From Candidatus Saccharimonadota bacterium (GTDB taxonomy: Bacteria > Patescibacteriota > Saccharimonadia > Saccharimonadales > Saccharimonadaceae): a stretch of 32,000 bases of DNA. Both the position numbers and the translations under genes were made by a program. Shown one piece after another: positions 2,421-27,248 of the stretch (position 1 is the first letter of the stretch; each line of letters begins with the position of its first letter). The stretch covers positions 120,001 to 152,000 of the forward strand of contig CP006915.1 of assembly GCA_000503915.1 (NCBI GenBank). Direction: 5' to 3'. A model generated the notes under the pieces. That model ran no database searches, was not told the origin of the DNA, and saw nothing but the letters and a program-made list of their open reading frames with translations.

Positions 2421-2469
2421 ACGGCTCCTCTGCTTGCAGCCAGAAGTTCTGTACAGTAAGATTAGAGAC

Positions 2470-3024
2470 ATGAGAAAAACCATAAGCATGTCCGGCAATG
2501 AGCTTCTGCCTGCAAGGAACCGGCGACCGGGCGGCTTTACGATTGTTGAGCTCTTGATCGTTATTGTGGTGATCGCGATTTTAGCGGCAATTACGATCGT
2601 GGCATATAACGGTATCCAGACACGAGCAAAAAATACTAAAACAATTAATGCAACCGCGGCCTGGATTAAAGCCCTTAGGCTGTACGAGGCAGATAACGGC
2701 GACTACCCGACGGTGACTTCTTGCCTTGGTACGACCACTACTTATCCCGACAATACCCAATGCTGGAACAACGCGAGCTGGACCGTTAAGTCAAGTTTCT
2801 TAACCTTGATGCAGCCATATCTTTCTTCCTTCCCCGAACCAGATACAACCAATATCGACACCGTTAATACTCCACGGCGAGGAGCACTCTACACCATCAG
2901 CGGCGCCGTTAAATATGTATACATGAGCTTAATCGGTGTCACAAGCTGCCCTACCATGAGTATTCCTACCTATAGTGGCGGCAACACCGATCAAGGACGA
3001 TATTGCATTTACCAGCTCAATTGA
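2470..3024 (+). CDS. type IV pilin-like protein (prepilin-type N-terminal cleavage/methylation domain)
   Basis: Leader ends ...RRPGG then FTIVELLIVIVVIAILAAITIVAYNGIQTRA (class III signal plus alpha-1 helix). Start chosen at ATG 2470; ATG 2488 is also possible. Confidence 0.85.
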   Translation: MRKTISMSGNELLPARNRRPGGFTIVELLIVIVVIAILAAITIVAYNGIQTRAKNTKTINATAAWIKALRLYEADNGDYPTVTSCLGTTTTYPDNTQCWNNASWTVKSSFLTLMQPYLSSFPEPDTTNIDTVNTPRRGALYTISGAVKYVYMSLIGVTSCPTMSIPTYSGGNTDQGRYCIYQLN

Positions 3025-8493: not shown

Positions 8494-8569
8494 CGGGGTG
8501 TGGCGCAGTTGGTAGCGCGCGCGGTTTGGGACCGTGAGGTCGAAGGTTCAAGTCCTTTCACCCCGACCA
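8494..8569 (+). tRNA. tRNA-Pro (anticodon UGG), CCA encoded
   Basis: Hand-folded cloverleaf. Acceptor CGGGGTG/CACCCCG, D arm GCGC-AGTTGGTA-GCGC, anticodon arm CGCGG-TTTGGGA-CCGTG, T arm GAAGG-TTCAAGT-CCTTT, discriminator A, then CCA. Confidence 0.9.
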
Positions 8570-10353
8570 GAAGATATTTCATCTAATTCCGTCATCAAAT
8601 TGTATGGCGGTTTTAGTTTTATAACAGGGGTAGAATCATCTCCAGCACGTAGGTTCGCAACAAACTCACTGCATATAGTATCTAGAACCATGATGTCAGT
8701 AGTTTTTAGCATATTTAACACCTTAGAACGTGTAAGTTCGTAGAACTCTTGCTCAGTAGGTAATGCTGTATCAAGTTTAGCTAGCTCAGTCTTGTTACCT
8801 GTTATAGCCTCTTCGTCTAGGCGTATAAGCTGTTGATACTCCTCTAGCTTTCCCTCATGGTATTTCTTGTAGTCATCAGGACTGTTTACTTGAAACTCTT
8901 GATAACGTGCATACTGTTGTTCGTTATTCTTTTGTGACTGCTTAGCCTCAGCAAGTTTGCGGTTCAATATAGCCCTGTCAGAAGCAATACGCTGTTCGAG
9001 GCTGTTCTTGTACATACGGTATGCATGTTCACTCTTCTTAGTTAAGTGTCGTAGTTGCCACTCGATACCTGCTAGTACGTACTTGCCTCGGATACTCTTT
9101 GAGAGTGTTATATTGAGGTCTTTCTGCTCAGCTGTATTGTGTCGTAAACATGCCTTATTGCGACAGTAGAAACTAATAACCCATTTTCCAGTATTTTTAC
9201 CACGCTTAATAGGCGTGTGTTGAAATCTCATAGCGTTATCGCAGTAATCACAAATAACCTTGTTGTGTAGCAATCCATAGTCTAGACGTTGTGAACGGTT
9301 CGTCTTTACGCTTGTAGTTTTACCAAAGTCTTTAGCGACATCAGCATTTAGCTGTATATATTCATCTGCTGTTATAAGTGGCTTAAAGTTATACAGGTCT
9401 ATGAGGTTTGCGAGGTTGTCACCGTAGCTGTATAAGCCAGAGTAAAACGAATCTGTAAAGATGTTGCCGACCATCTGCTTAGTAACGTTTACCAGCTTAG
9501 GTTTGTCATCTTGGTCTTTACGCTCGGTTAGCTTAGCACTGTTCAAAAACTCTGCTATATCAGTATTATTCATACCGCCATACAATCGCATATCTACAGC
9601 TCTTCGAAGTAGATTCCAGTTGTATTCATCAGGTGTAAAGTATCCAGTTATCGAGTCTACATAGTAGCCCTTTTTCACTACGCCGTTATACTTACCCTCT
9701 ACGATATTACCAAGAGTACCACGCTTCACATCTACTGCTAGTTTGTCCGAGTATTGCTTTGATGTAGCAAACAAAATACCTAACATCATCTTGCCGTTTG
9801 CTGTGTTATCAAACTGGTAGGTCACAAAGGCGAGGTCTTGAATATCTTCGTGGTCAATCATTTCAATGACCTCACCAGCCTCCTTCATGTTACGGGATAA
9901 ACGGTCAGGCGACCACGATATAAGCCCGTGATACTTGCCAGTCTTAAATCCTAGTAGCATTTTGTCGAAAATAGGACGGTTGCCAGAAGTCTTGGCCGAA
10001 GCACTTTCTACGAATATATCCTCTTCACGAACCGTAACCTTTAACGTATTAGTGGCAAGTTTTATACATTCAGCTCGTTGGTCATCTAGTGAACGTACTT
10101 GCTTGGTTTCATCATCAGTAGACTTGCGTAGGTATATAGCGTAACGGCGTTTTTCTTTAGGCAGTATCTTTTTAGCCCCCTCGGTTGTTGCAGAGAAGTA
10201 GTCTAGAAGGTCATTGACACTACGTTCACTATTACCAAAGGCTTTATTGCGGTATTCAGATGTATATACATACTTTTCTTGTACACTTGCAAGCTCAGCC
10301 TCATCTGCGAGAACTTTAGTGCGTTTTTTACGATTAGTTGTACCTTTTGGCAT
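8548..10353 (-). CDS. large serine recombinase (integrase)
   Basis: Resolvase-type catalytic domain (YLRKSTDDE...SLDDQ, SWSPDRLSRN). Recombinase domain, zinc ribbon (CDYCDNAMRF...FYCRNKAC) and a long coiled-coil C-terminus. ATG 10353 is preferred over the TTG at 10380. The last 7 codons and the stop lie inside tRNA-Pro. Confidence 0.9.
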   Translation of the reverse strand: MPKGTTNRKKRTKVLADEAELASVQEKYVYTSEYRNKAFGNSERSVNDLLDYFSATTEGAKKILPKEKRRYAIYLRKSTDDETKQVRSLDDQRAECIKLATNTLKVTVREEDIFVESASAKTSGNRPIFDKMLLGFKTGKYHGLISWSPDRLSRNMKEAGEVIEMIDHEDIQDLAFVTYQFDNTANGKMMLGILFATSKQYSDKLAVDVKRGTLGNIVEGKYNGVVKKGYYVDSITGYFTPDEYNWNLLRRAVDMRLYGGMNNTDIAEFLNSAKLTERKDQDDKPKLVNVTKQMVGNIFTDSFYSGLYSYGDNLANLIDLYNFKPLITADEYIQLNADVAKDFGKTTSVKTNRSQRLDYGLLHNKVICDYCDNAMRFQHTPIKRGKNTGKWVISFYCRNKACLRHNTAEQKDLNITLSKSIRGKYVLAGIEWQLRHLTKKSEHAYRMYKNSLEQRIASDRAILNRKLAEAKQSQKNNEQQYARYQEFQVNSPDDYKKYHEGKLEEYQQLIRLDEEAITGNKTELAKLDTALPTEQEFYELTRSKVLNMLKTTDIMVLDTICSEFVANLRAGDDSTPVIKLKPPYNLMTELDEISSGRGERT

Positions 10354-10410
10354 ATATTGATTCCTACTAATATTGTACAAAACTTGTGCGGTAATGTAAA
10401 CTATTGTTAT

Positions 10411-12166: not shown

Positions 12167-15100
12167 ATGACAAAAATACCAGTATCTATCAGCCAACTAG
12201 CAAAATACGGACTTGATTATGTAAGCCTAATTTCAAGTAGTGCCTCCAGAAGCCGACCCGTTAAGACTGAGCAGATGGATACCGACCTACTCTCTATCCC
12301 AGACGTGATTTTCAAAAGCGAAGTTGACTCCATAACAATTGATTTAGTCACCTCTCTAGATAAACAGTTCGACCCGAGCATACCGAACGAGGAAAAGAGC
12401 GACGAGCAACGACAAGCTGAGTGGCGTATTGAACGGGACAGAGGTATCTTAAATAAGATTCAAGAAATAGATACAAAAATTAGAACCGATGAATATACGA
12501 AACGGGTAGTCCTGCAAACTGGCTTTATATCATTTGAGGCAAAACGCTACCTTGAGTCTGAATTCAATGAAGAGTACGAGAAATACGAGGCTCCGTTGTT
12601 TCAAATTCCAGTTGCGGCAATAAACTTCAAATATAATCCTGATGGCGTAACAGTAACTATCGACTTACCTGATAATTATGTAGAGATTTTAAACGGCCCA
12701 TTAAAGAACTTCTTGCCTCAGCAGTATTTTGATAAGGTGTTTAAGTTTATAGCGGATTCAGAGGCGGAAGAGAAAACAATGCTTCCGCTTGCCGATGATT
12801 TTATCGAAGACTTGTGGTCGGCAATAAGAGTTCAGTTAGATGGATTAGATGCGAAGTCAATATCTGAAGCTCCTAGTTTTGCAACCAGCATTGTTGCAAT
12901 CACGAATAAGACAAATCACTTCCTTGCCGAAGACCTTAAGGCTATAGCTGCACTAGAAGATGAAGACTTGCTAGAAACGTCATTAGGCAGTTGGGTGTCA
13001 GATGAAGATATGGCAATTGAACAGGTAGTTTCTGATGACGGTAGTACGGAAATATTCTTTCCGTTTGATTATGACAAGTATCAGCTAAAAGTCTTAGGCA
13101 TTACAGCAAATAAAGCGGTTATTGTTGAAGGTCCTCCAGGAACTGGAAAATCACAGACCATCTCAAACTTACTTGTACATCTTGCAGCCACGGGTAAACG
13201 GGTGCTATTTGCTAGTCAAAAAGACCAAGCTATACGTGGAGTCAAAGATAAGCTAAAAGCATTGGATGTGCCATTTTTGTATGGGTATATTCCTGACAAA
13301 ACATCTAAGCTGTACACAGAAGAAGATGAAAAAGACAGTGCCGCAAACACACTACTTGCACTCAATAGAGAGTTCCAAAAAGGAAAGGTCGGTGACTTAA
13401 AAGAACCTCTGTCGTTACTTGCCAACCGTTCAAATATTTTTGTAGAGAACTTAAATAACGAACGTTCTATCTATGCCCTACTAGAAGAGCGTAGAAGCTT
13501 GAGCTACCTTGATTCTTTTCATCCGTACGAAATTGATAGCGGATGGTATAGCCAGTGTGGCTTATTAGAAGACACTATTAATGGATTAGAGGCCAGTGTT
13601 AACAAATATGAAAAGGCTCATGAGAAGTTTTTAAGGGCAGCCAACAAGAAGTTTGAAAATCTAGAATTAGATTACCAGGCGACTATAGACTCAATTGAAA
13701 GTATCTACACATACTTTAAGGAAAATATGCCCGAACGGTCTGGTTGGATAGGTAGTAAGGTTAATGAAATGAAATTGCGTAATGCACTGAAAGAGAATGG
13801 CCGCAACCTATTGCAGGAAATTTTCGTAGAAGTTGAAAAGGTACTATTCTCTGACAATACAAAGTCTGCCCGATTGCAGCTATTAGATAGTCTGTCGGAT
13901 TACTTTGTTTACAGTAGTGAGCTACAGGCAATAACTGAAAGTCGTTCTTCACTTAACGAATTACTCTCAGGCAAAGAAATATCACCGACTACGTACGCCT
14001 CTCTCAAAAAGGTAATCTTGGATAATGGTAGTAAGGAGAAGGTGTTCGGGGATTTAACTAGGTATAACGAAATCACCGAGCAGGTAGAAGAAATGTCGTT
14101 GTACTCGGCGAATGAGCTTAACCGAGAAATCAAGGATATTCGCAAGTTTTACAGAACCAATATCACAAATTACGTACGTAACCGTATCCTAACCAGAGTT
14201 GGTGAAGCGAATAACAGTAAGGACGTAAGGGCTACCCTAGCTCAGGTTGCCCGAAGTCTTACAAAGAGTAAGAAAGCCAATAAGACATTCGACAGATTGA
14301 AGCACAACGAAGACAATTTTAGTGCCATGTCTAAGGTCTTGCCAATCTGGATGATGAGCCTAGATGATGTTAGTCGTATAGTTCCACTCGAGAAGAATGC
14401 ATTTGATTATGTAATTATCGATGAAGCATCACAGTGTAATTTTGCATATGCGTTTCCAGCAATGTTCCGTGCTGAACATACAATTTTCTTTGGTGATACT
14501 TTGCAGATGCGTGATGACAACATTATGTTTAAGTCGAATGACCAACTTAATGCTATTGCTAAGAAGCATAAGATACCTGAGGTTTATCAAATTAAGGCGG
14601 AAGAAGACACGGTAAAATCCGTTATGGATATTGCTCATCTTAATGGCTTTAAAACAACAACTCTCAAGTATCACTATCGCTCACCGAGGGAGCTTATAGG
14701 CTTCTCTAATGAATCTTTCTACGAACCAATAGGTCGAAAACTAGAGGCAGTTAACGACAATATCGTACCCTACAAAGATACTGGGCGTGTTCTTCTCAAC
14801 CATATTGTTAAGCCAAATGCAGATGAAGAGCTGTCCGACAGGACAAATCTAGCCGAGGTACGTAAAATTCAGGAGTTGGTTGACGAGATTAAAAGTGACC
14901 CCGTACTGAAGGATAAGTCCATTGCTGTTCTAACCTTCTTTAACGAGCAAGCTGAGCTGATAAGAAACGCCATTAAACACGAAGATATTAAGGTCTCTAT
15001 AATTGACGGTATTCAGGGTGATGAACGTGATATCGTAATCTATTCATTTGTTATTAAAGACCCTAGCGACAAGAAGCGTTACATTGCCCTAACTGGTGAA

Positions 15101-16051
15101 GGTGGCGAGATTCGTAAAGATATTGCAGCTGGTCGTGTAAACGTTGCCTTTAGCCGAGCTAGATTACAGGTTCATACCGTTACATCGTTAGCTCCTGAGC
15201 TATGGCCTGAGGGTATTTGGATTAAGCGATACCTGGAGTATGTCGAAAATAGCGGTATAGTGAACCGTCGTCACAGTAAGGCAGAGCAGCAGTTTGACTC
15301 TAATTTTGAGGAAAAGGTGTTTAGCTATTTGGCGAAAGAGCTGGATGCTAGCGAGTATACCTTAGAAACGCAGGTAGAATCTCTTGGGTTTAAAATTGAT
15401 TTAGTAGTTTGCCGTAATGGCAAGAAACTAGCAATCGAGATGGATGGCCCTTCGCACTTTGAAGGTGGAGATGGTCAGGTATACGTAAAGGATGACTGGG
15501 ACAGGCAGGGTGCTCTTGAAACTGCTGGATGGAACTTTTACCGCATTTCATACTTTGATTGGACGAAAGACCAACAGGCTGAGCATAAAGCACTCAGTGA
15601 ATATATACAGCAGTACTTCGATGATGAAAGTGTTTCAAGCAAAACTACCGTCCTAAAAGAACTCGAAAAAGAAACAGTGGCACCAGAAGAATCGCCTAAG
15701 GATATGTATGTTACCGACTTTTCAGAAGAGAGTGTAGATAACGTTACTCCTGTCCAAGCTGTTCCTGTGACCAGGAATGTGAAGCGCACTAATACTGCCA
15801 AGACTACTCCCGCCAAGCCGACCTTCTCGATAGGAGACCGTGAGGTTAACCAAGAGGACTTAGAAAGATATCTTAGTACTCATCAACAGAGTTATATCGA
15901 AATACGATACCAGTCTATGCGTGCAGGGTCAGCAAAATACTGGAGAACTATACGTCTAGATAGCTACGATGGCACGTACATGTATTCCAAGCAGGATAAC
16001 GCACCTTATCCAATAAAATATCGACGAGACCGAGTAATAGAGTTTAGATAG
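12167..16051 (+). CDS. 1294-aa DUF4011-like N-terminus + Upf1/DNA2-like SF1 helicase + DUF559/Vsr-fold endonuclease-like domain + WYL-like C-terminal domain
   Basis: Helicase motifs EGPPGTGKSQT (I), YVIIDEASQC (II), FFGDTLQM (III), YHYRSPRELIGFSNESFY, IDGIQGDERDIVIYSFV (V) and GRVNVAFSRARLQVH (VI). Nuclease-like GFKIDLVVCRNGKKLAIEMDGPSHF...DRQGALETAGWNFYRISYFDW. The tail IEIRYQSMRAGSAKYWRTIRLDSYDGTYMYSKQDNAPYPIKYRRDRVIEF follows the WYL pattern (tentative). Confidence 0.9.
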   Translation: MTKIPVSISQLAKYGLDYVSLISSSASRSRPVKTEQMDTDLLSIPDVIFKSEVDSITIDLVTSLDKQFDPSIPNEEKSDEQRQAEWRIERDRGILNKIQEIDTKIRTDEYTKRVVLQTGFISFEAKRYLESEFNEEYEKYEAPLFQIPVAAINFKYNPDGVTVTIDLPDNYVEILNGPLKNFLPQQYFDKVFKFIADSEAEEKTMLPLADDFIEDLWSAIRVQLDGLDAKSISEAPSFATSIVAITNKTNHFLAEDLKAIAALEDEDLLETSLGSWVSDEDMAIEQVVSDDGSTEIFFPFDYDKYQLKVLGITANKAVIVEGPPGTGKSQTISNLLVHLAATGKRVLFASQKDQAIRGVKDKLKALDVPFLYGYIPDKTSKLYTEEDEKDSAANTLLALNREFQKGKVGDLKEPLSLLANRSNIFVENLNNERSIYALLEERRSLSYLDSFHPYEIDSGWYSQCGLLEDTINGLEASVNKYEKAHEKFLRAANKKFENLELDYQATIDSIESIYTYFKENMPERSGWIGSKVNEMKLRNALKENGRNLLQEIFVEVEKVLFSDNTKSARLQLLDSLSDYFVYSSELQAITESRSSLNELLSGKEISPTTYASLKKVILDNGSKEKVFGDLTRYNEITEQVEEMSLYSANELNREIKDIRKFYRTNITNYVRNRILTRVGEANNSKDVRATLAQVARSLTKSKKANKTFDRLKHNEDNFSAMSKVLPIWMMSLDDVSRIVPLEKNAFDYVIIDEASQCNFAYAFPAMFRAEHTIFFGDTLQMRDDNIMFKSNDQLNAIAKKHKIPEVYQIKAEEDTVKSVMDIAHLNGFKTTTLKYHYRSPRELIGFSNESFYEPIGRKLEAVNDNIVPYKDTGRVLLNHIVKPNADEELSDRTNLAEVRKIQELVDEIKSDPVLKDKSIAVLTFFNEQAELIRNAIKHEDIKVSIIDGIQGDERDIVIYSFVIKDPSDKKRYIALTGEGGEIRKDIAAGRVNVAFSRARLQVHTVTSLAPELWPEGIWIKRYLEYVENSGIVNRRHSKAEQQFDSNFEEKVFSYLAKELDASEYTLETQVESLGFKIDLVVCRNGKKLAIEMDGPSHFEGGDGQVYVKDDWDRQGALETAGWNFYRISYFDWTKDQQAEHKALSEYIQQYFDDESVSSKTTVLKELEKETVAPEESPKDMYVTDFSEESVDNVTPVQAVPVTRNVKRTNTAKTTPAKPTFSIGDREVNQEDLERYLSTHQQSYIEIRYQSMRAGSAKYWRTIRLDSYDGTYMYSKQDNAPYPIKYRRDRVIEFR

Positions 16052-16156
16052 CCAGCATTAAAGGCAATGTTTCCTTGAATCATCCCCGAGCGTGATTTAA
16101 ATTAGATGTTTTATTTCCAGAATAGGTGTAGCATCAACTTTTGATTTAGAATGCAA

Positions 16157-16194
16157 GAATCGAATCGCCCCCAGAGGCGTTTCTCCCAACTTTG
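16157..16194. repeat. right copy of the 38-nt imperfect inverted repeat flanking the helicase-nuclease gene
   Basis: GAATCGAATCGCCCCCAGAGGCGTTTCTCCCAACTTTG. See the left copy at 12043-12080. Confidence 0.6.
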
Positions 16195-16209
16195 ATATAT
16201 AATCAGAGA

Positions 16210-16350
16210 GTCTAGATTCAACAATTAGAGTATGAGGTCAACAGACCTTTCGTTTGAACCGTAAATACGGCAACTCCTTGCGAAAGCAGTTAGGTTCAAA
16301 CCTGATTGTTGAGTCTAGACAACCCTAGTGAGGGGTTGTCGTTTTATTTT
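16210..16350 (+). ncRNA. candidate structured RNA (riboswitch-like leader or small RNA) ending in an intrinsic terminator
   Basis: A 16-bp closing helix pairs 16210-16225 with 16305-16320 (one G-U). Inside it: hairpin GGTC-AACA-GACC (16236-16247), a 9-bp helix GTTTGAACC/GGTTCAAAC (16252-16260 with 16293-16301), and a GAAA-tetraloop hairpin TGC-GAAA-GCA (16279-16288). TATAAT at 16198-16203 lies just upstream. Confidence 0.5.
16318..16350 (+). terminator. rho-independent terminator immediately upstream of the next gene's RBS
   Basis: GACAACCC (16318-16325) pairs with GGGTTGTC (16333-16340), followed by GTTTTATTTT. AAGGAG lies at 16353-16358 and the ATG at 16369. Confidence 0.75.
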
Positions 16351-16368
16351 AAAAGGAGAAATAACAAA

Positions 16369-16926
16369 ATGGTCACAAAAGACTCAAAACATTCAGGTGG
16401 TCAGGGCTTAGCTACGGCATCACTAACGTTAGGCATCATATCAATACCGCTACTAGGAGTAGGTGCAATTCTTGGTATTCTGGCGATTATCTTTGGGGCT
16501 GTATCATTGCGACAGAACCAAGGTCGTAAAAAATCCGTAGCCGGTATTATTACAGGAAGTATTGGTATTCTGATTGCCATCCTCTTACTGGTCGTATATC
16601 TTGCAGTTCCATCGTTACAAGCAAACAATAACGACACAGCACGTAAAGCAGACGTTACGAATTTAACAAGCGATGTGATTGACTACCAAGCAAACAATAG
16701 AGGCAAGATGCCTAGTAAGTACGAGCTATCGAAAGCTAAGTTAGTTCAAGTTTCAGACATTAAACAGGCTGCTTATGATGGCTACGGGTATGACGGTAAC
16801 CCTAAGCCTACGCTAGATACAGCAGTCTATACAATTGGCGAAAATTGTAACGGCGAGAAAGCAAATCGTAACTTCTCCATAACAGTCCTACTAGAGAACA
16901 ATACGGTATATTGCGTAGGTTCTTAG
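16369..16926 (+). CDS. membrane-anchored pilin-like protein (DUF4190-type double-TM N-terminus fused to a pilin-like globular region, no prepilin signal)
   Basis: N-terminus GLATASLTLGIISIPLLGVGAILGILAIIFGAVSL plus a second TM. Then SLQANNNDTARKADVTNLTSDVIDYQANNRGKMP aligns by eye with the post-helix region of the resident pilins (GIQARARDAQRKNDIAIITKAMELYYIDNGSYP). The G|FTxxE cleavage/methylation motif is absent. Confidence 0.8.
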   Translation: MVTKDSKHSGGQGLATASLTLGIISIPLLGVGAILGILAIIFGAVSLRQNQGRKKSVAGIITGSIGILIAILLLVVYLAVPSLQANNNDTARKADVTNLTSDVIDYQANNRGKMPSKYELSKAKLVQVSDIKQAAYDGYGYDGNPKPTLDTAVYTIGENCNGEKANRNFSITVLLENNTVYCVGS

Positions 16927-16992: not shown

Positions 16993-17099
16993 AAGGTATG
17001 GATTTTTCATTTCTGCTTATTGTACGCTTATGGTACAAAGTAGTGCCCCACTGAACAGAGCTTGAACTGTAGGCTTGGCTATCCCTACCACACCCCACC
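16993..17099. repeat. copy A of a ~108-nt island repeat
   Basis: AAGGTATGGATTTTTC...AAAGTAGT...TAGGCTTGGCTATCCCTACCACACCCCACC. The ends and central block are shared with copy B. The internal hairpins differ in sequence but are retained. Confidence 0.8.
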
Positions 17100-17143
17100 A
17101 ATGTGTAGTTCTATATCTGCATAAACGTTATAATTACAATAAT

Positions 17144-18571
17144 ATGGCGCAAGAGACAATATTTTATTCATGGCAATCCGACAACTCGAAGACTCGAAGT
17201 TACGTAGAGCGTGCCCTAAAGAAAGCCGTAGAGAGCATTGCAGATGACCCTAGCATCGAATCAGCACCTCGCATAGACAAAGATACACAGGATGTCGCAG
17301 GAGCGGTTCACATTGTTGATACTATAAAAAAGAAGATTGATGAGTGCGGCATATTTCTTGCAGACGTATCGCTTGTTGATAAAGCAGCTTCTGGTCGAGC
17401 CATCGTCAATCAAAATGTAATGTTTGAACTTGGTTACGCTATCGGCAAGCATAGCGAGTCTAGAGTCATTATGGTGGCTAACGCAGACCTGGGTGATGTA
17501 AAGAACCTTCCTTTTGACATCTCACACCATAGAGTCATTCAATTCTCTCCATCCGCCGACCCTAAAGCAACAAAACTCCAGGCTTCACTAGAATCTGCTA
17601 TCAATATTCATCTGCAAGCATTAGCCGTACAAAACAAAGAATCATTGGTGACTTCGGAAAAGGAAAAGCTACTTACTGCTATAGATAATGGCAAGCCAAC
17701 TAGAACTCTCGCAAAGAAGTATTTTGAGACTGCGTATAGTCAGTATCTAGGTTTATCCCCAGGTAGGTATAAGGACGGCAACCACCAGCATTACGCCTCC
17801 GAGGTCTTCGAGGCATATGAGAAGACGAAACATATTGCACTAGAGCTACACGAAGTATTTGAGGTAGCAGCAGAACACAAAAAGGAAGATGTCTTACTGC
17901 AAGCATATAAATCTATTCAAATTGTTTCACAGTACTATGACGTTATGCCCGAGGATGGTGGACAGCTAAGTGAAGTATCGAAGGATTATTACATCCTCGT
18001 AGTTAATGAAATCGTCTCACTGTTAATGGGTAGTATTAGCCATGAAAAGCTCTGGGGACTCATGCAAGAAATAGCATCTACAAAGCTAAGCAGAGCGGAC
18101 ATGTACGAAGAAACAAGAACCTTAGACAGGTTATACGGGCATCCTCAAAACCTTCTCAACTACTACAAAGAGCTAAAGAGCGTAAACTATGTGATTCCCA
18201 TGACTCCACTCATTGCAGAACGTTTCTCCGATAGTCAGGATGTTCTTCAAGCCTACATAGACGGAAGTATGCTGCGTTACTTCCTTGTAGGCAGCTACCC
18301 GTGGATTGTAGGCTTGCTATTAGGGAACTCTTGGACAAAGCATATCCCCGAATTCTTCGCCGAGTTTAAGAAGGTATCATTCGTTAATGCGATGATGAAA
18401 GTTACAGGCGAAAAAACAGTAGATGAATTCCGTTCAAACATATGGAAACAGGCATCTGCCGACCTTGCGAACTGGAGCTACCCCAATGACAATCTGCTGC
18501 CAGCACTTAAGTTTGTGGGCATAGAGACAGAGGGTGACATAGCCAAAAACCAGCAAGTAATTTCGGTATAA
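17144..18571 (+). CDS. TIR-like / nucleoside 2-deoxyribosyltransferase-like N-terminal domain protein with a ~300-aa helical C-terminal domain of unknown function
   Basis: N-terminus IFYSWQSDNSKTR...IFLADVSLV...NQNVMFELGYAIGK...RVIMV resembles the TIR-like fold of COG4271/Cap12-type proteins, recalled from memory. TATAAT at 17129-17134 is 9 nt from the ATG (near-leaderless). Confidence 0.7.
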   Translation: MAQETIFYSWQSDNSKTRSYVERALKKAVESIADDPSIESAPRIDKDTQDVAGAVHIVDTIKKKIDECGIFLADVSLVDKAASGRAIVNQNVMFELGYAIGKHSESRVIMVANADLGDVKNLPFDISHHRVIQFSPSADPKATKLQASLESAINIHLQALAVQNKESLVTSEKEKLLTAIDNGKPTRTLAKKYFETAYSQYLGLSPGRYKDGNHQHYASEVFEAYEKTKHIALELHEVFEVAAEHKKEDVLLQAYKSIQIVSQYYDVMPEDGGQLSEVSKDYYILVVNEIVSLLMGSISHEKLWGLMQEIASTKLSRADMYEETRTLDRLYGHPQNLLNYYKELKSVNYVIPMTPLIAERFSDSQDVLQAYIDGSMLRYFLVGSYPWIVGLLLGNSWTKHIPEFFAEFKKVSFVNAMMKVTGEKTVDEFRSNIWKQASADLANWSYPNDNLLPALKFVGIETEGDIAKNQQVISV

Positions 18572-18582
18572 GTATTGAGAAA

Positions 18583-19299
18583 ATGAAGCCTCATAAAAAT
18601 ATTGGGCTACATCCGACTAATGCACTTAAGATAGCATTAAAGCTCTTCGATAATAAGCAAACCACTAAGGAAAAAATTAGTCTACTCTTGAACAATCGCT
18701 CTGTCAGTAATCTAGAGTCGGTTGATACACCTAAAGATTTTGCGAGCGGTAAAACGATTGATATTAATGCTGGTGAATTACTTGGTATAGGTAGTGTTGC
18801 GGCGTATTACAACTGGATGAGTGAAGAGGCTGGAACAGGCAATACGTATCAAGCAGTGGTTGGTATTGAGGATGCTGGAAAAAACCAAATCGAAAGTCAG
18901 CTTTCGGATGGGGCAATATATCACGACCAAGTCAATGGAAAAATTCTGGCTCAGCAAGTAATGACCCAAGGCTACTATCCTGATAAATGGATAACTAGCC
19001 AAGATGTTATTGATGCAGTAAAAAAGAAGTGTGCAGAACGACACAAGTATCACGAGAATTGCATTCTGATTGTTAATGTCTTCGGAGACAAGGTTAATGT
19101 TGACCGCAAAGTAATCTATGACGAGATAAGCAAGCTCTCTGAACCGTTTAGCGATACATACATGGTAGTTTACGGCTTGCCATCGCTGAAAATGGCACAC
19201 GTCAGTTTTATAAGTGAACCACCTGATACGCGTGGGTTAGCTCTCAAGCTGGAGCGGCACGAATACGAAGACATCTGGCATTTCAACAAGATGGACTAA
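18583..19299 (+). CDS. hypothetical protein (238 aa), partner of the TIR-like gene
   Basis: Starts 11 nt after the previous stop. No motif recognised. Confidence 0.65.
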   Translation: MKPHKNIGLHPTNALKIALKLFDNKQTTKEKISLLLNNRSVSNLESVDTPKDFASGKTIDINAGELLGIGSVAAYYNWMSEEAGTGNTYQAVVGIEDAGKNQIESQLSDGAIYHDQVNGKILAQQVMTQGYYPDKWITSQDVIDAVKKKCAERHKYHENCILIVNVFGDKVNVDRKVIYDEISKLSEPFSDTYMVVYGLPSLKMAHVSFISEPPDTRGLALKLERHEYEDIWHFNKMD

Positions 19300-19407
19300 A
19301 GGTATGGAGTTTTCGTTTTTCGTTTATTGCGTACAAACGGCATAAAGTAGTACTACCTCTAATAATACTTATACTACTAGGCTTGTCCGACCCTACCACA
19401 CCCCACC
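19299..19407. repeat. copy B of the ~108-nt island repeat
   Basis: AAGGTATGGAGTTTTCG...AAAGTAGT...TAGGCTTGTCCGACCCTACCACACCCCACC. Begins on the stop codon of the 238-aa gene. Confidence 0.8.
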
Positions 19408-19458
19408 TAAAGCTAATAAACCTATATATTTAGGTTCAACATATTTCTCGTTAATTAA

Positions 19459-19662
19459 CTATTTAGATTTCTCTATACCTAGTTCTTTGAATGTAGGTCG
19501 TTTTTGGCGTTTACGCTGAGGTGCATTTAGTATCATCTCACGTCTTTCAACGCTCTTCTTAACCTTACTAACACTACCTGCAACAGGTGTACTAAACGTC
19601 CTATCGTCCCAGTTAGATGTATCTGTAGGTGATTCTTGAGGTGGTAGTTTTGTATCACTCAT
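19459..19662 (-). CDS. small basic hypothetical protein (67 aa)
   Basis: ORF with a lysine/arginine-rich C-terminus (KVKKSVERREMILNAPQRKRQKRPTFKELGIEKSK). Followed on the minus strand by hairpin AACCTA-N6-TAGGTT. Confidence 0.5.
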   Translation of the reverse strand: MSDTKLPPQESPTDTSNWDDRTFSTPVAGSVSKVKKSVERREMILNAPQRKRQKRPTFKELGIEKSK

Positions 19663-19886: not shown

Positions 19887-20342
19887 TTAACCACCGACAA
19901 CAAAATCATATCCCCAGGCTGTTGGTCCATAAGGCGTGTTGGCACACAGAGTAGCACCAGAACTTGACCAGGTAATAGACACTTCACTCGCACCCTGACC
20001 TGAGACATATTTGTATTGTTTGCCGTATTGCTGTACGAGTAAAGCATAGCCTGTGCCTGAAGCCGCGCATAATATCACGTTACTCCCTACTGGGCTAAAA
20101 GAGAAGCGGGCTCCCATCGTGGCCGCTTGCGGCCAACTAGTTGGATACGTTCCGTTTTCAGCATTGTACAATTCAAGTTTTTTTGAGACGTTAGACAAGT
20201 CACTTTGCATCGATGCATCCCTAGCTCGTTGCTGGATACCGTTGTATGCAACAACAGTAATAGCCGCTAAAACAGCGATCACTACGATTACTATCAGGAG
20301 TTCAACAATCGTAAAACCTGTGTGCTTTTTTATAACACTCAT
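19887..20342 (-). CDS. type IV pilin (prepilin-type N-terminal cleavage/methylation domain)
   Basis: MSVIKKHTG then FTIVELLIVIVVIAVLAAITVVAYNGIQQRARD. Confidence 0.85.
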   Translation of the reverse strand: MSVIKKHTGFTIVELLIVIVVIAVLAAITVVAYNGIQQRARDASMQSDLSNVSKKLELYNAENGTYPTSWPQAATMGARFSFSPVGSNVILCAASGTGYALLVQQYGKQYKYVSGQGASEVSITWSSSGATLCANTPYGPTAWGYDFVVGG

Positions 20343-20373: not shown

Positions 20374-20994
20374 TTACGCTATTGTGTTTGCCAGCTCTTC
20401 TTTGACACTTGTCAGGCTTGCTTTATATCCCGCCTGGTCGTCGAGAAAGTCGGCATAGTGCGGCAGCGAGGGAAAGAGCGAGATGACCCGCTCTGGCTGA
20501 AGCCACTCCGGCCGGCCGATGCCATACCAAGCATGAATGCTTGAGTAAGGATGAGCCTGCCAGTCTTTTGGATCGAGATGGATATAGCGGCTGACAAGTC
20601 GCACCTGTTCATCATCAGATAAGCGCGAGGCTCGGTACGTACCTTCAAGCAGTGCACCGGACAAGCCGTATCGTTTATTAAAATAACGGCTATAGCTTGC
20701 TAGTACACTCCGCATCAGCTGCGTCATCCCACCTTCGTCTGCCTGATAAACAAGCAGATGAAAATGGTTTGGCATCAGACAGTAGCTAAGGAGTTCTACC
20801 TGCCCACGTAGATGAGGATAGGGGTGATGATTGCGGTCATATTGCCGCATCAGCGAGAGACTGCGACTAAAAAGCGTGAGAAACATCTCAAAATCGGCTT
20901 CATCTCGATAAATTTTCTGACGACCGCGACCGCGAGCATATACGTGGTAAATACTGTCAGTGATATCTATTTTGAGAACATTTCTCGAGGGCAT
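20374..20994 (-). CDS. IS200-like Y1 (HUH) transposase family protein, RayT/COG1943-like
   Basis: HUH motif YCLMPNHFHLLVYQ. Candidate catalytic Tyr in RYIHLDP. Single gene with no tnpB. Different short hairpins lie on each flank (20343-20366; 21027-21055). Confidence 0.8.
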   Translation of the reverse strand: MPSRNVLKIDITDSIYHVYARGRGRQKIYRDEADFEMFLTLFSRSLSLMRQYDRNHHPYPHLRGQVELLSYCLMPNHFHLLVYQADEGGMTQLMRSVLASYSRYFNKRYGLSGALLEGTYRASRLSDDEQVRLVSRYIHLDPKDWQAHPYSSIHAWYGIGRPEWLQPERVISLFPSLPHYADFLDDQAGYKASLTSVKEELANTIA

Positions 20995-26123: not shown

Positions 26124-26663
26124 TTACTTAACAATATAATATTCAGACGATGAGTAGTTAGTGGGCTGTGGCCCAGCCGCACAGTCACCGTTGATGCTTC
26201 TCTCTTGCGAGCTGTTTTCAAGACGATAAGCTAGCAGGTAGCTCGGCCTGCCGGCAGGCGTCGTACACCAACCTGGATTGGCAACAATATCGTAGTTATA
26301 GCCACCCGATATACCAGCTGGGGTATCTGTGGATGCTCGAGGATCTTTTGGTACCTTCGATAAGTATTTCGGTACTAAATATGTTTCAAAAGTTGTCCAG
26401 CTCGCGTCGGCAGTAGTTGTCCATCCACTGTTAATCTTACACCCGGCACCAAGGGTGCAGCTTGTGGGAGGATAAGAACCGTTGTCGATATAGTACAATT
26501 CCATCGCTTTCGTAATTATTGCGATATCATTTTTTCGTTGCGCGTCCCGAGCTCGAGCTTGAATGCCGTTGTACGCGACCACAGTAATTGCCGCCAGAAT
26601 GGCAATCACGACGATAACGATGAGAAGTTCAACGATCGTGAAGCCCCGTTTTCTAGCTCTCAT
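26124..26663 (-). CDS. type IV pilin-like protein
   Basis: MRARKRG then FTIVELLIVIVVIAILAAITVVAYNGIQARARDAQRKNDI. Confidence 0.85.
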   Translation of the reverse strand: MRARKRGFTIVELLIVIVVIAILAAITVVAYNGIQARARDAQRKNDIAIITKAMELYYIDNGSYPPTSCTLGAGCKINSGWTTTADASWTTFETYLVPKYLSKVPKDPRASTDTPAGISGGYNYDIVANPGWCTTPAGRPSYLLAYRLENSSQERSINGDCAAGPQPTNYSSSEYYIVK

Positions 26664-26669
26664 ATAATA

Positions 26670-27212
26670 TTAATCCTTGCTTCGTCTATAGTTGCTACCA
26701 GCGTAAAGCGAGCCCGCATTATAACTACAGCTCCCCTCTAGTGTATTCGCTTGCGAGGTGACTTCATATTTATATACGAGAAGGAATGCTTGAGCAGTAG
26801 TCGCATTAACACAGTACCCTGGCCGACTATAGTACGAGTAGTCGTACCCTCCCGCATCATTCCAAGGATATGCACCCGCACTCGTTTGCTTACTGATAGG
26901 GTCTTTGGGGACGGATGAAATATAGGGAGTAAGCTGATTTACAAGATTTTGCCAACTACTGTCAGCCGTCGTACTCCAGCTACTGTTGATAGAGGTGGAG
27001 CCCGAACTTAATGGATAACTGCCATTATTAATGTAGTAGATTTCCAATGCCTTAACGAGTGCAGTAATGTCCGATTTTCGCTGTGCATCACGTGCCCGTT
27101 GTTGAATGCCGTTATACGCGACCATAGTAATTGCCGCCAGAATCGCGATAACCACGATAACGATCAAGAGCTCGACGATTGTAAACCCTTTTTGAGACCA
27201 GCGCGATTTCAT
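26670..27212 (-). CDS. type IV pilin-like protein (tandem paralogue)
   Basis: MKSRWSQKG then FTIVELLIVIVVIAILAAITMVAYNGIQQRARDAQRKSDI. Start taken at the internal ATG 27212 of track ORF 26670..27245. Confidence 0.85.
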   Translation of the reverse strand: MKSRWSQKGFTIVELLIVIVVIAILAAITMVAYNGIQQRARDAQRKSDITALVKALEIYYINNGSYPLSSGSTSINSSWSTTADSSWQNLVNQLTPYISSVPKDPISKQTSAGAYPWNDAGGYDYSYYSRPGYCVNATTAQAFLLVYKYEVTSQANTLEGSCSYNAGSLYAGSNYRRSKD

Positions 27213-27248
27213 AGTAGAAGTATAAGCCGGGAGAAAAGTAAGCACAAG

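What the first reader, a model, noticed from the sequence alone, without database searches (positions are those of the whole stretch)
17144..19299. TIR-like protein plus unknown partner as a two-gene cassette bracketed by ~108-nt repeats
The first gene opens with IFYSWQSD...IFLADVSLV...NQNVMFELGYAIGK...RVIMV. I recognise this as the TIR-like / 2-deoxyribosyltransferase-like fold used by NADase and nucleotide-processing defence effectors such as Cap12-type and Thoeris-type proteins.

Its ~300-aa C-terminal helical region and the tightly linked 238-aa gene (11-nt gap) match nothing I can name.

The pair is flanked precisely by repeat copies A (16993-17099) and B (19299-19407), and B starts on the partner gene's stop codon. 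That gives the pair a cassette-like appearance.

This is a candidate for a new TIR-based sensor/effector pair in a lineage where defence systems are poorly charted.
Basis: partly seen in the sequence, partly recalled or inferred. Interest (0 to 1): 0.75.

Follow-up and report, generated by a model that had tools for sequence, protein, structure and literature searches.

The report
TIR-like defence gene beside swappable-slot gene
A Saccharibacteria mobile island carries a probable stand-alone TIR-type (NAD-cleaving) defence protein in front of a rare unknown gene, but the two are not a fixed pair: in relatives the slot in front of that gene holds an unrelated gene, and the TIR gene mostly occurs without it.

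Summary
There are two co-directional genes, A (17144-18571, 475 aa) and B (18583-19299, 238 aa), 11 nt apart. They are bracketed by two copies of a ~110-nt element, which are only about 66% identical. The window is Ca. Saccharibacteria RAAC3_TM7_1.

A's first ~140 residues pass Pfam PF10137 (Cap12/PycTIR-type TIR). They model as a TIR / 2'-deoxyribosyltransferase fold, and the FELG glutamate (E95) is invariant. The ~330-aa helical tail matches nothing and diverges much faster than the head.

B has no Pfam, PDB or viral-fold match. Its family is tiny (57 representatives among 1.84 billion proteins), and all 13 loci found in the genome collection are Saccharibacteria.

- A lies upstream of B in only five closely related loci.
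- None of 80 metagenome loci with A-like genes, nor the five other A-homologue loci looked up, holds a B homologue.
- In three close relatives an unrelated ~510-aa gene occupies A's slot, between the same repeats.

Best reading: A is a self-contained TIR-type effector riding in an exchangeable slot upstream of B, at the far end of a low-GC island (tRNA-Pro, large serine recombinase, helicase-nuclease). The functions of B and of the repeats remain unknown.

The parts
8494..8569 (+). tRNA-Pro (UGG); proposed left edge of the island
   Evidence: ARAGORN and Rfam tRNA at 66.5 bits. The recombinase stop codon overlaps its 3' end.
8548..10380 (-). Large serine recombinase, the island's integrase candidate
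   Evidence: Pfam Resolvase 1e-17 plus Recombinase. Large serine recombinases recur near B in 8 other loci.
12167..16051 (+). 1294-aa SF1 helicase with a C-terminal REase_MTES_1575 nuclease; candidate defence cargo of the same island
   Evidence: Pfam AAA_11, AAA_12 and MTES_1575. PADLOC PDC-S37 at 238 bits. NCBIfam ProA and Hhe models are partly matched, below their cut-offs. An orthologue with 83% nt identity sits in L101.
16306..16926 (+). DUF4190-like membrane protein upstream of the repeat
   Evidence: Pfam DUF4190 at 29.6 bits, below the 35-bit cut-off. Weak hit to pilin-like conjugal transfer protein models.
16993..17099 (+). Upstream copy of the ~110-nt repeat
   Evidence: nhmmer E 3.5e-26. 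Positional counterparts in L007, L008 (5' half), L100 and L101.
17129..17134 (+). TATAAT -10-like hexamer, 9 nt before A's ATG (possible leaderless-type promoter)
   Evidence: Read from the sequence. The same GYTATAAT box sits before the ATG in L007, L009 and L010. Function is inferred only.
17144..17563 (+). Gene A head: TIR-like / 2'-deoxyribosyltransferase-like domain (residues 1-140)
   Evidence: PF10137 at 27.5 bits. AF2 pLDDT 90 with alternating strand-helix elements. Foldseek hits to SfSTING TIR, TIR-APAZ and NDT. Y8, D74, N89, N91 and E95 are invariant. E95 aligns with the glutamate of the ELGYA/EFG motif in NDT 6qai and PycTIR 8jsj.
17564..18571 (+). Gene A tail: ~330-aa all-helical domain of unknown function; proposed sensor or regulatory part
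   Evidence: AF2 helices 143-457 at high confidence. No Pfam, PADLOC, NCBIfam or PDB sequence match. Mean identity is 42% against 62% for the head, falling to 14-17% against 39-46% in distant homologues.
18583..19299 (+). Gene B: 238-aa protein of a small, uncharacterised family whose genome hits are all Saccharibacteria
   Evidence: 73 word-indexed homologues and 57 representatives in 1.84e9 proteins. Invariant E65, D109, G110, Q124, K149 and L162. AF2 pLDDT 81.5, pTM 0.83. No significant PDB or BFVD fold match. No Pfam.
19299..19407 (+). Downstream copy of the repeat; starts on B's stop codon. Its 3' end coincides with the end of homology to relatives.
   Evidence: nhmmer E 1.5e-27. BLASTN homology of the window to L008, L009, L011 and L100 stops at 19406-19409.

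Best explanation
Shown: the locus is genes G0153 and G0154 of Candidatus Saccharibacteria RAAC3_TM7_1. It sits at the far end of a low-GC stretch running from about 8.5 to 19.4 kb. That stretch begins at tRNA-Pro and a large serine recombinase, and it also carries a helicase-nuclease of a candidate defence type.

Shown: gene A has a conserved TIR-type head of the Cap12/PycTIR Pfam family. The head keeps the Tyr/Asp/Glu constellation of 2'-deoxyribosyltransferase-like N-glycosidases (Y8, D74, E95). It is fused to a fast-diverging ~330-aa helical tail.

Inferred: A works as a single-protein effector. The tail holds the head inactive and recognises a cue, most plausibly a phage component. Activation brings heads together, and they cleave the N-glycosidic bond of NAD+ or a related nucleotide. 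This stops growth of the infected cell.

Shown: gene B is not A's dedicated partner. Its family is rare, and every locus found in the genome collection is Saccharibacteria. About half the loci also hold a large serine recombinase.

Shown: B stays in place while the gene directly in front of it differs between relatives. That gene is A, an unrelated ~510-aa protein, a ~245-aa protein, or nothing. Sequence homology between the A-type and 510-type loci resumes exactly at B's ATG.

Inferred: the space between the upstream repeat and B is an exchangeable cargo slot. A is one of its occupants, co-transcribed with B in this lineage.

Shown: the ~110-nt repeats are conserved non-coding elements that bracket the slot plus B. 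Their role is unknown.
For: Identity
- The exact proteins are RAAC3_TM7C00001G0153 and G0154.

Head domain of A
- PF10137 scores above the gathering threshold.
- Foldseek probability is 1.00 for SfSTING TIR (E 8.8e-4), TIR-STING, TIR-APAZ and CtNDT.
- Y8, D74, N89, N91 and E95 are invariant in 40-79 sequences.
- E95 aligns with the motif glutamate of NDT and PycTIR.

A is stand-alone
- No B homologue appears in any of 80 metagenome loci holding A-like genes, about 20 of them full-length at 24-43% identity.
- No neighbour family recurs across 23 full-length A loci, apart from close-relative pairs.
- Homologues sit inside or next to type I RM genes in L001 (with SduA_C and a reverse transcriptase) and L037. 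Other loci have RM methylases nearby.
- The head is far more conserved than the tail.

B and the exchangeable slot
- Across 18 independent B loci the upstream gene is A in 5 and the 510-aa gene in 3.
- L101 is an orthologous island. Its helicase is 83% identical in DNA, and it has the layout up-repeat, 510-aa gene, B, down-repeat.
- Homology begins at B's ATG.
- The 510-aa family is broad (>200 hits, including Ktedonobacterales and actinomycetes), so it cannot depend on B. One member lies next to HsdR.

Island
- tRNA-Pro, the recombinase and the GC profile support it.
- The A-B block is the only DNA shared with L007-L011.
Against: - No enzymatic activity, toxicity or phage defence has been tested for any member of this architecture.
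- The PF10137 hit is only 2.8 bits above its cut-off. PDB sequence matches are sub-threshold (E 0.12-0.36).
- Some homologues sit in stable, non-island contexts. These include the Nanogingivalaceae locus repeated across samples and a run of HD, cupin and methyltransferase genes with NUDIX genes nearby. Such contexts would also fit a metabolic role.
- The defence-neighbour evidence is anecdotal, not a statistical enrichment.
- The 11-nt spacing in the window, and the ATG that overlaps A's end in L010, would equally suit a functional A-B pair in this clade.
- The island's right edge is inferred from breaks in homology. No displaced tRNA fragment marks it.
Confidence: 0.55

Rival explanations
1. 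B-centred modular system. B is the shared working component, for example a restriction-endonuclease-like effector or a regulator. It pairs with interchangeable upstream partners: the TIR-like A, the 510-aa protein, or the ~245-aa protein. The repeats help the partner exchange or co-regulate the operon.
For: - At least 10 of 18 B loci have a tightly linked co-directional neighbour. These are A (5 loci), the 510-aa gene (3), ~245-aa genes in L015 and L103 (not detectably related to each other), and an overlapping Mrr_cat gene downstream in L013.
- The spacer to B is 10-11 nt with both A and the 510-aa gene.
- The same repeats bracket both versions.
- B has enzyme-like invariant polar residues E65, D109, Q124 and K149.
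- B's strand and helix order, alpha-beta-beta-beta-alpha-beta, is that of PD-(D/E)xK nucleases. Weak fold hits go to PaqCI, Hjc, RecU and HincII.
- A distant B relative heads a three-gene operon in another mobile context.
Against: - Both the A family and the 510-aa family are far broader than B and occur without it.
- B stands alone behind its own upstream region in L012 and L102.
- No fold match for B reaches significance, and the classical (D/E)xK motif is absent.
- A weak B-like ORF next to a 510-family gene in L105 is inconclusive (hhalign probability 68%).
Confidence: 0.2
2. This is the first reader's model: a Thoeris-like two-gene TIR system. A senses infection and produces a nucleotide signal, and B is the signal-activated effector (or the reverse).
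For: - The TIR fold and invariant glutamate are present.
- The operon is tight in five related genomes.
- Known Thoeris TIR clusters pair with many different effector types, including domains of unknown function (bioRxiv 10.64898/2025.12.03.692087).
Against: - Co-occurrence is confined to one narrow clade.
- B has no recognisable signal-binding domain such as SLOG, Macro or STING.
- B keeps its place when A is replaced by an unrelated protein.
- The cited survey set aside stand-alone TIR proteins as likely NAD+-depleting effectors rather than signal producers.
Confidence: 0.1
3. A is a housekeeping or salvage enzyme, a 2'-deoxyribosyltransferase-like nucleoside or nucleotide N-glycosidase, rather than an immune protein. 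This would suit Saccharibacteria, which depend on nucleotide salvage (my own knowledge of the lineage).
For: - Y8, D74 and E95 parallel the Tyr/Asp/Glu catalytic set of NDTs. CtNDT Y7F, D62N and E88A/Q mutants appear among the Foldseek hits, and the alignment to NDT 6qai supports the match.
- A 63%-identical homologue ends a run of HD, cupin and methyltransferase genes, with three NUDIX genes nearby.
- The Nanogingivalaceae homologue sits in the same chromosomal context in several samples.
Against: - The best Pfam and fold matches are the NADase TIRs of Cap12/PycTIR type.
- A large, fast-diverging tail is atypical for a metabolic enzyme.
- Homologues are nested in RM loci and islands, and head-domain relatives sit on conjugative plasmids.
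- The gene is readily replaced by an unrelated gene in close relatives.
Confidence: 0.1
4. The repeats are recombination sites, attC-like or att-like. This would make A-B-repeat a mobile gene cassette moved by a site-specific recombinase.
For: - Homology to L009 and L011 runs from just after the upstream repeat (17103-17106) to the end of the downstream repeat (19409). This is the layout of a cassette with a 3' site.
- In three of these loci (L008, L011, L100) a complete large serine recombinase gene lies within about 5 kb, and L009 holds a fragment of one.
- In the window the two 3' blocks are more alike than either is to its positional counterparts, which hints at homogenisation.
Against: - There is no integron-type tyrosine integrase; only a serine recombinase and a Y1 transposase are present.
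- Hairpin potential is not significant, with z-scores of -0.35 to -1.95 (one copy +0.51). The consensus fold is about -3 kcal/mol.
- Only these two copies exist in the window, and no copy is found away from a B gene in any fetched locus.
- The observed swap replaces only the gene upstream of B, not the inter-repeat unit.
- The copies are only 48-80% identical.
Confidence: 0.07

Closest known systems
Cap12 (TIR-STING) of CBASS and PycTIR of Pycsar: NAD+-degrading TIR effectors, Pfam PF10137
   Same: - The head domain belongs to the same Pfam family.
- These proteins give the best structural matches (SfSTING 7un8, TIR-STING 9lmq).
- A weak profile alignment to PycTIR 8jsj places E95 on its motif glutamate.
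- The logic is also shared: a catalytic TIR fused to a second domain that controls it.
   Different: - The second domain is not STING, SAVED or a cyclic-nucleotide-binding domain. It is an unmatched ~330-aa helical domain.
- No CD-NTase or pyrimidine cyclase gene lies nearby.
- The TIR is N-terminal here, whereas in PycTIR 8jsj the aligned stretch is C-terminal.
Nucleoside 2'-deoxyribosyltransferases (NDT; e.g. Chroococcidiopsis CtNDT, PDB 8pqt; 6qai)
   Same: - The fold matches, with TM-score up to 0.52 on the target.
- The ELGYA glutamate motif is shared, along with equivalents of the Tyr and Asp catalytic residues (Y8, D74, E95).
   Different: - NDTs are ~150-aa stand-alone metabolic enzymes.
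- A has Asn where the aligned NDT has Asp (N89).
- A carries a large extra domain and sits on an island.
Thoeris (ThsB TIR plus ThsA-type effector) and its newly described types V-XI
   Same: A TIR-domain gene is tightly linked to a second gene of unknown function.
   Different: - The linkage is not conserved.
- B lacks any known signal-binding domain.
- The constant gene here is the non-TIR one.
Cargo hotspots of mobile elements, such as the defence-gene hotspots of P2/P4-like elements and ICEs (from my own knowledge of that literature)
   Same: - Conserved flanks (the upstream repeat region and B) enclose unrelated alternative genes in otherwise orthologous islands.
- One alternative (A) has a head domain of a family used by defence effectors, and the island carries a PDC-S37-like helicase-nuclease.
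   Different: - The host lineage is Saccharibacteria and the integrase is a serine recombinase.
- The ~110-nt flanking repeats are not part of that concept.
- Defence function is untested for every occupant.

Membership tests
TIR-like domain, Pfam PF10137 (CAP12-PCTIR_TIR) | Sequence score above the family's gathering threshold | tested here: met
   27.5 bits against a 24.7 cut-off, residues 52-115. Many homologues carry the precomputed PF10137 annotation.
TIR-like domain, Pfam PF10137 (CAP12-PCTIR_TIR) | Flavodoxin-like TIR fold | tested here: met
   The AF2 model has pLDDT 90.3. Foldseek gives probability 1.00 to the SfSTING TIR, TIR-STING, SPARTA TIR-APAZ and NDT.
TIR-like domain, Pfam PF10137 (CAP12-PCTIR_TIR) | Conserved catalytic glutamate | tested here: met
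   E95 is invariant in 79 and in 40 sequences. It aligns with the motif glutamate of PycTIR and NDT. Catalysis itself was not tested.
TIR-like domain, Pfam PF10137 (CAP12-PCTIR_TIR) | NAD+ cleavage activity | not testable with these tools
   This needs a biochemical assay.
CBASS / Pycsar effector (Cap12, PycTIR) | Adjacent CD-NTase or pyrimidine cyclase gene | tested here: not met
   No such domain is found in any island ORF.
CBASS / Pycsar effector (Cap12, PycTIR) | A STING, SAVED or cNMP-binding sensor domain fused to the TIR | tested here: not met
   The tail has no Pfam, PADLOC or PDB sequence match. It is all-helical.
Thoeris-type two-gene TIR signalling system | Conserved co-occurrence of the TIR gene with its effector gene | tested here: not met
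   A lies upstream of B in only 5 closely related loci. None of 80 A-like metagenome loci has B, and L001-L004, L108 and L109 also lack it.
Thoeris-type two-gene TIR signalling system | Effector with a signal-binding domain (SLOG, Macro, etc.) plus a killing domain | tested here: not met
   B and 43 relatives have no Pfam domain at E<=0.05 apart from scattered chance hits.
PD-(D/E)xK nuclease superfamily (for B) | alpha-beta-beta-beta-alpha-beta core fold | tested here: inconclusive
   The order of elements in the AF2 model fits: H63-83, E89-95, E111-114, E119-129, H139-150, E160-168. The best fold matches to nucleases are weak: PaqCI E 0.14, Hjc 0.25, RecU 0.16.
PD-(D/E)xK nuclease superfamily (for B) | Catalytic D...(D/E)xK motif | tested here: inconclusive
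   E65, D109, Q124 and K149 are invariant. The third strand carries Q-Q-V instead of (D/E)xK, and the lysine lies in the following helix.
Integron gene cassette | IntI tyrosine integrase and hairpin-forming attC sites | tested here: not met
   No tyrosine integrase was found among the ORFs scanned from 8.5 to 21 kb; the rest of the window was not scanned. The repeats show no significant folding and match no Rfam family.
tRNA-targeted integrative island | tRNA gene next to a recombinase, with deviant base composition | tested here: met
   tRNA-Pro 8494-8569 overlaps the end of the serine recombinase gene. GC is 0.40-0.42 against 0.51-0.58 in the flanks.
tRNA-targeted integrative island | Displaced tRNA fragment or direct repeat marking the far end | tested here: not met
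   There is no second copy of the tRNA 3' end at up to 3 mismatches, and the repeat does not resemble it. Serine recombinases need not leave long repeats (established knowledge), so this does not exclude an island.

The most novel reading that the evidence does not exclude
B, together with the ~110-nt repeats, defines a previously undescribed exchange locus on Saccharibacteria mobile elements. B would be a new-fold, nuclease-like common component that works with whichever protein is plugged in upstream (the TIR-like A, the 510-aa protein, or others). The repeats would be the sites or regulatory elements that make the partner swap possible. That would amount to a modular immune or addiction module specific to the candidate phyla radiation.
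Probability: 0.15. Interest if true: 0.7.

Novelty: new variant of a known kind. Interest (0 to 1): 0.4.

Why it matters
Defence and mobile-element biology in Saccharibacteria and other ultra-small episymbionts is barely charted.

- The locus offers a testable single-protein TIR-type effector with an uncharacterised helical control domain. Full-length relatives occur in metagenome contigs with GC content from 0.36 to 0.70.
- It offers a concrete example of gene-for-gene replacement at a fixed slot in orthologous islands. This gives two further untested candidates, the 510-aa family and B.
- If A proves to be an NADase triggered through its tail, it adds a new sensor type to TIR immunity.
- If instead it is a salvage enzyme, that bears on how these bacteria obtain nucleotides.

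Tried and rejected
1. The repeat as a structured RNA.
- No Rfam family matches at gathering or permissive thresholds.
- Single-sequence folding z-scores are not significant: -0.35 to -1.95, with one copy at +0.51.
- The RNAalifold consensus is only about -3 kcal/mol on either strand, with a short closing stem and no double compensatory changes.

2. The repeat as a tRNA-derived att site.
- It shows no similarity to tRNA-Pro.
- There is no displaced tRNA 3' fragment in the window.

3. Circular-permutation idea. I asked whether the B-repeat-recombinase order in L011 is the excised form of the window's island. The two serine recombinases are not orthologous, so I dropped it.

4. Additional repeat copies. 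None is found in the window, or in any fetched locus, away from a B gene.

5. Naming B.
- Pfam, PADLOC, NCBIfam and PHROGs give nothing.
- PDB sequence profiles give only spurious designed repeats.
- Foldseek against PDB and BFVD gives nothing at E<0.001.
- There are no matches in IMG/VR, GenBank phages or PLSDB plasmids.

6. A conserved partner for the A family. All-against-all BLAST of 128 neighbours in 23 loci found none.

7. A B-like ORF next to a 510-family gene in L105. The hhalign probability is 68% at 12% identity, which is inconclusive.

8. A micro-ORF inside the repeat (MDFSF...). Its length and sequence are not conserved, and it is only 3 codons long in L008 (read from the alignment).
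Full report
**What is in the sequence**

- The window encodes a 475-aa protein (A) at 17144-18571. The mechanical ORF opens at TTG 17075, but homologues start at the ATG.
- After an 11-nt gap comes a 238-aa protein (B) at 18583-19299.
- Exact matches identify the two proteins as RAAC3_TM7C00001G0153 and G0154 of Candidatus Saccharibacteria bacterium RAAC3_TM7_1, on an 845,464-bp contig.

**The repeats are real but diverged**

- The ungapped repeat finder saw only a 30-nt core with 87% identity.
- A gapped alignment shows the full ~110-nt correspondence between 16993-17099 and 19299-19407. Identity is about 66%.
- Each of the two conserved terminal blocks occurs exactly twice in 32 kb, against 0.04-0.05 expected by chance.
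- The downstream copy starts on the last base of B's stop codon.
- The upstream copy ends 44 nt before A's ATG. A TATAAT hexamer at 17129-17134, 9 nt before the ATG, lies in between.

**Surroundings**

- tRNA-Pro lies at 8494-8569. The 3' end of a 610-aa large serine recombinase gene (8548-10380, minus strand) overlaps it.
- Next come two unknown ORFs, then a 1294-aa SF1 helicase with a REase_MTES_1575 nuclease domain. That protein matches the PADLOC candidate system PDC-S37 at 238 bits. It matches the NCBIfam ProA and Hhe antiphage models only partly.
- After the helicase come a DUF4190-like membrane protein, the upstream repeat, A, B and the downstream repeat.
- GC content is 0.40-0.42 from 9 to 20 kb, against 0.51-0.58 on both sides.
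- I read this as an integrative island of about 11 kb with A-B at its far end. No displaced tRNA fragment marks that end. With a serine recombinase that is not unexpected.

**Protein A**

- The head passes the Pfam gathering threshold for PF10137, the Cap12/PycTIR TIR family (27.5 bits against 24.7).
- An AlphaFold2 model built on 79 sequences is confident (pLDDT 90.3). Residues 5-134 form alternating strands and helices, and residues 143-457 are all-helical.
- Foldseek against the PDB returns the TIR domain of SfSTING (E 8.8e-4) and further TIR-STING structures. It also returns the TIR-APAZ subunit of SPARTA and a cyanobacterial nucleoside 2'-deoxyribosyltransferase. All have probability 1.00.
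- Y8, W10, D47, G53, D74, N89, N91, V92, E95, G97, N113 and G117 are invariant in a 40-sequence head alignment. F7, Y8, S9, W10, S12, D74, N89, N91 and E95 are among the columns invariant in the 79-sequence alignment.
- A head-only profile aligns E95 with the glutamate of the ELGYA motif of NDT 6qai and with the corresponding glutamate of PycTIR 8jsj. It aligns D74 and N89 with two aspartates of the NDT. The E-values are sub-threshold at 0.12 and 0.36.
- The Tyr/Asp/Glu set mirrors residues that structural biologists mutated in CtNDT (Y7F, D62N, E88A/Q in the entries listed).
- The tail matches no Pfam, PADLOC, NCBIfam or PDB entry.
- The tail also diverges much faster than the head. Mean identity to the query is 42% against 62%, and 14-17% against 39-46% in the most distant full-length homologues. 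Columns conserved at 80% or more number 34 of 330 in the tail against 55 of 140 in the head.
- A conserved catalytic head with a variable tail is what one expects of an effector joined to a recognition or control domain. That step is inference.

**Protein B**

- B has no hit in Pfam, PADLOC, NCBIfam or PHROGs.
- An exhaustive HMMER profile search of 1.84 billion representative proteins finds only 57 members. All 13 loci recovered from the genome collection are Saccharibacteria.
- Across 44 members down to 18% identity, E65, D109, G110, Q124, K149 and L162 are invariant, and E104 nearly so.
- The AF2 model is confident overall (pLDDT 81.5, pTM 0.83), although four short stretches fall below pLDDT 50.
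- Its alpha-beta-beta-beta-alpha-beta core order recalls restriction-endonuclease-like folds. However, no PDB or BFVD match reaches E<0.001. The nuclease hits (PaqCI, Hjc, HincII, RecU) are weak.
- B's function is therefore unknown, and a nuclease-like fold is only a lead.

**Co-occurrence, the decisive test**

- Of 13 genome loci with B, an A homologue lies directly upstream only in L007, L009, L010 and L011. In these the A-B block is about 82% identical to the window at the DNA level.
- In L008, where B is 89% identical, an unrelated 516-aa ORF fills A's position (BLASTP E>1 against A). The same ~510-aa gene precedes B in L100 and L101.
- Other B loci have a ~245-aa gene upstream (L015, L103), an overlapping Mrr_cat gene downstream (L005/L013), DUF2268, DUF4160 or DUF4238 neighbours, or no linked gene at all (L012, L102).
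- Conversely, 80 metagenome loci with A-like genes contain no B homologue. About 20 of them have the full head-plus-tail architecture at 24-43% identity.
- Homologues at 56%, 44% and 63% identity also lack B.
- All-against-all comparison of 128 neighbours of full-length A homologues reveals no recurrent partner.
- A is nested in a type I RM locus in L001, alongside SduA_C, a reverse transcriptase and a Ymh protein. In L037 an HsdS-like gene precedes it.
- RM methylases and specificity subunits are the commonest neighbour families, but the counts are small.

**The exchangeable slot**

- The A-B block is the only DNA the window shares with L007-L011.
- L101 is an orthologous island. Its helicase gene is 83% identical to window 13418-16382. 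It is followed by the upstream-repeat region, the 510-aa gene, B and the downstream repeat.
- Sequences of A-type and 510-type loci diverge right up to B's ATG and are homologous from it onward.
- The 510-aa family has more than 200 homologues, including Ktedonobacterales and actinomycetes. It has no Pfam domain, and it occurs without B, once beside a type I HsdR.
- So both occupants are widespread autonomous genes captured in front of a lineage-restricted gene.
- Large serine recombinases lie within a few kb of B in 8 other loci, and one lies about 8 kb from B in the window.
- A distant B relative sits in another recombinase-bearing context next to a DUF87/TraG-like ATPase.

**The repeats in relatives**

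- A DNA profile of seven copies, which include both window copies, was searched against all loci fetched.
- The training loci hold full copies: both positions in the window and L007, and the downstream position in L008, L009 and L011 (E 1e-21 to 1e-28).
- Beyond the training copies, it finds a 5' half at the upstream position of L008 (E 3.6e-6).
- In L100 and L101, neither used for training, it finds both positions (downstream E 7e-28 and 1.2e-22; upstream E 9e-8 and 3e-9).
- It finds no copy in L010, L012, L102 or L103, nor in any A-only locus.
- Copies are 48-80% identical, less conserved than the flanking genes.
- They match no Rfam family, do not fold better than shuffled sequence, have a negligible consensus structure, and do not resemble tRNA-Pro.
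- Homology of the window to several relatives ends at 19406-19409, the last bases of the downstream copy. This fits that copy lying at the island edge.
- I could not assign the repeats a function.

**Verdict**

- The 'new TIR-based sensor/effector pair' is not supported. The best-supported reading is a stand-alone TIR-type effector with a novel helical tail. It occupies an exchangeable slot upstream of a rare gene whose loci often also hold a recombinase, on a Saccharibacteria island.
- No paper held in the searchable library describes this architecture or B.
- A recent survey of TIR systems set aside stand-alone TIR proteins as likely NAD+-depleting effectors (bioRxiv 10.64898/2025.12.03.692087).

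Noticed in passing
window 8494-10380: tRNA-Pro overlaps the 3' end of a 610-aa large serine recombinase gene. Together with the low GC from 9 to 20 kb, this looks like an integrative island of about 11 kb. No displaced tRNA fragment was found.
   Followed up: partly
window 12167-16051: A 1294-aa SF1 helicase with a C-terminal REase_MTES_1575 nuclease. It matches PADLOC PDC-S37 (238 bits) and, partly, the ProA and Hhe antiphage models. An orthologue with 83% nt identity lies in L101.
   Followed up: partly
window 2434-3024, 19887-20342, 26124-26663, 26670-27245: Four type IV pilin-like paralogues share ~95-114-nt conserved 5' ends. These are the only other long repeats in the window.
   Followed up: no
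window 20374-20994 (minus strand); L007:9152-9934; L010:1049-1681: An IS200-like Y1 transposase homologue recurs within a few kb of B in three loci.
   Followed up: no
window 17129-17134; L012 and L102 upstream of B: TATAAT-like boxes lie only about 9-12 nt before start codons, with no obvious Shine-Dalgarno sequence. This suggests leaderless or very short-leader transcripts.
   Followed up: no
L008:6455-7990, L100:3458-4990, L101:3458-4990: An uncharacterised ~510-aa protein family occupies A's slot. It has more than 200 homologues, no Pfam domain, and reaches Ktedonobacterales and actinomycetes. One member lies beside a type I HsdR gene (L104). It is a candidate stand-alone defence gene.
   Followed up: partly
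L001:6412-17419: A 56%-identical A homologue is nested in a type I RM locus. The order is hsdM, A, a 358-aa gene, hsdS, a SduA_C (Shedu-like) gene, a reverse transcriptase, a Ymh gene and hsdR. This is a dense defence island in another Saccharibacteria genome.
   Followed up: no
L106:5001-7695, L107:1023-3717: A distant B relative (P0217) heads a tight three-gene operon (244, 278 and 368 aa, all unknown). It lies next to a DUF87/TraG-like ATPase, a PLD-like gene and a resolvase.
   Followed up: no
window 16999-17055 and 19305-19346 (inside the repeats): Each repeat copy starts with a Phe-rich micro-ORF (MDFSFLL..., MEFSFFV...) of 13-18 codons. In L008 it is only 3 codons long, so it is probably not a conserved peptide.
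   Followed up: partly
L110 (E. coli pETEC_35, NC_009787.1) and L111 (Rhizobium pPR4): Relatives of A's head domain (34-39% identity) occur in hypothetical proteins on 67 plasmids, 55 of them conjugative. Hosts include Providencia, Escherichia and Rhizobium, and the domain architectures differ.
   Followed up: partly
window 19459-19662 (minus strand): A 67-aa ORF with a basic C-terminus converges on the downstream repeat. It has no family match, and the DNA here has no match in the related loci.
   Followed up: no
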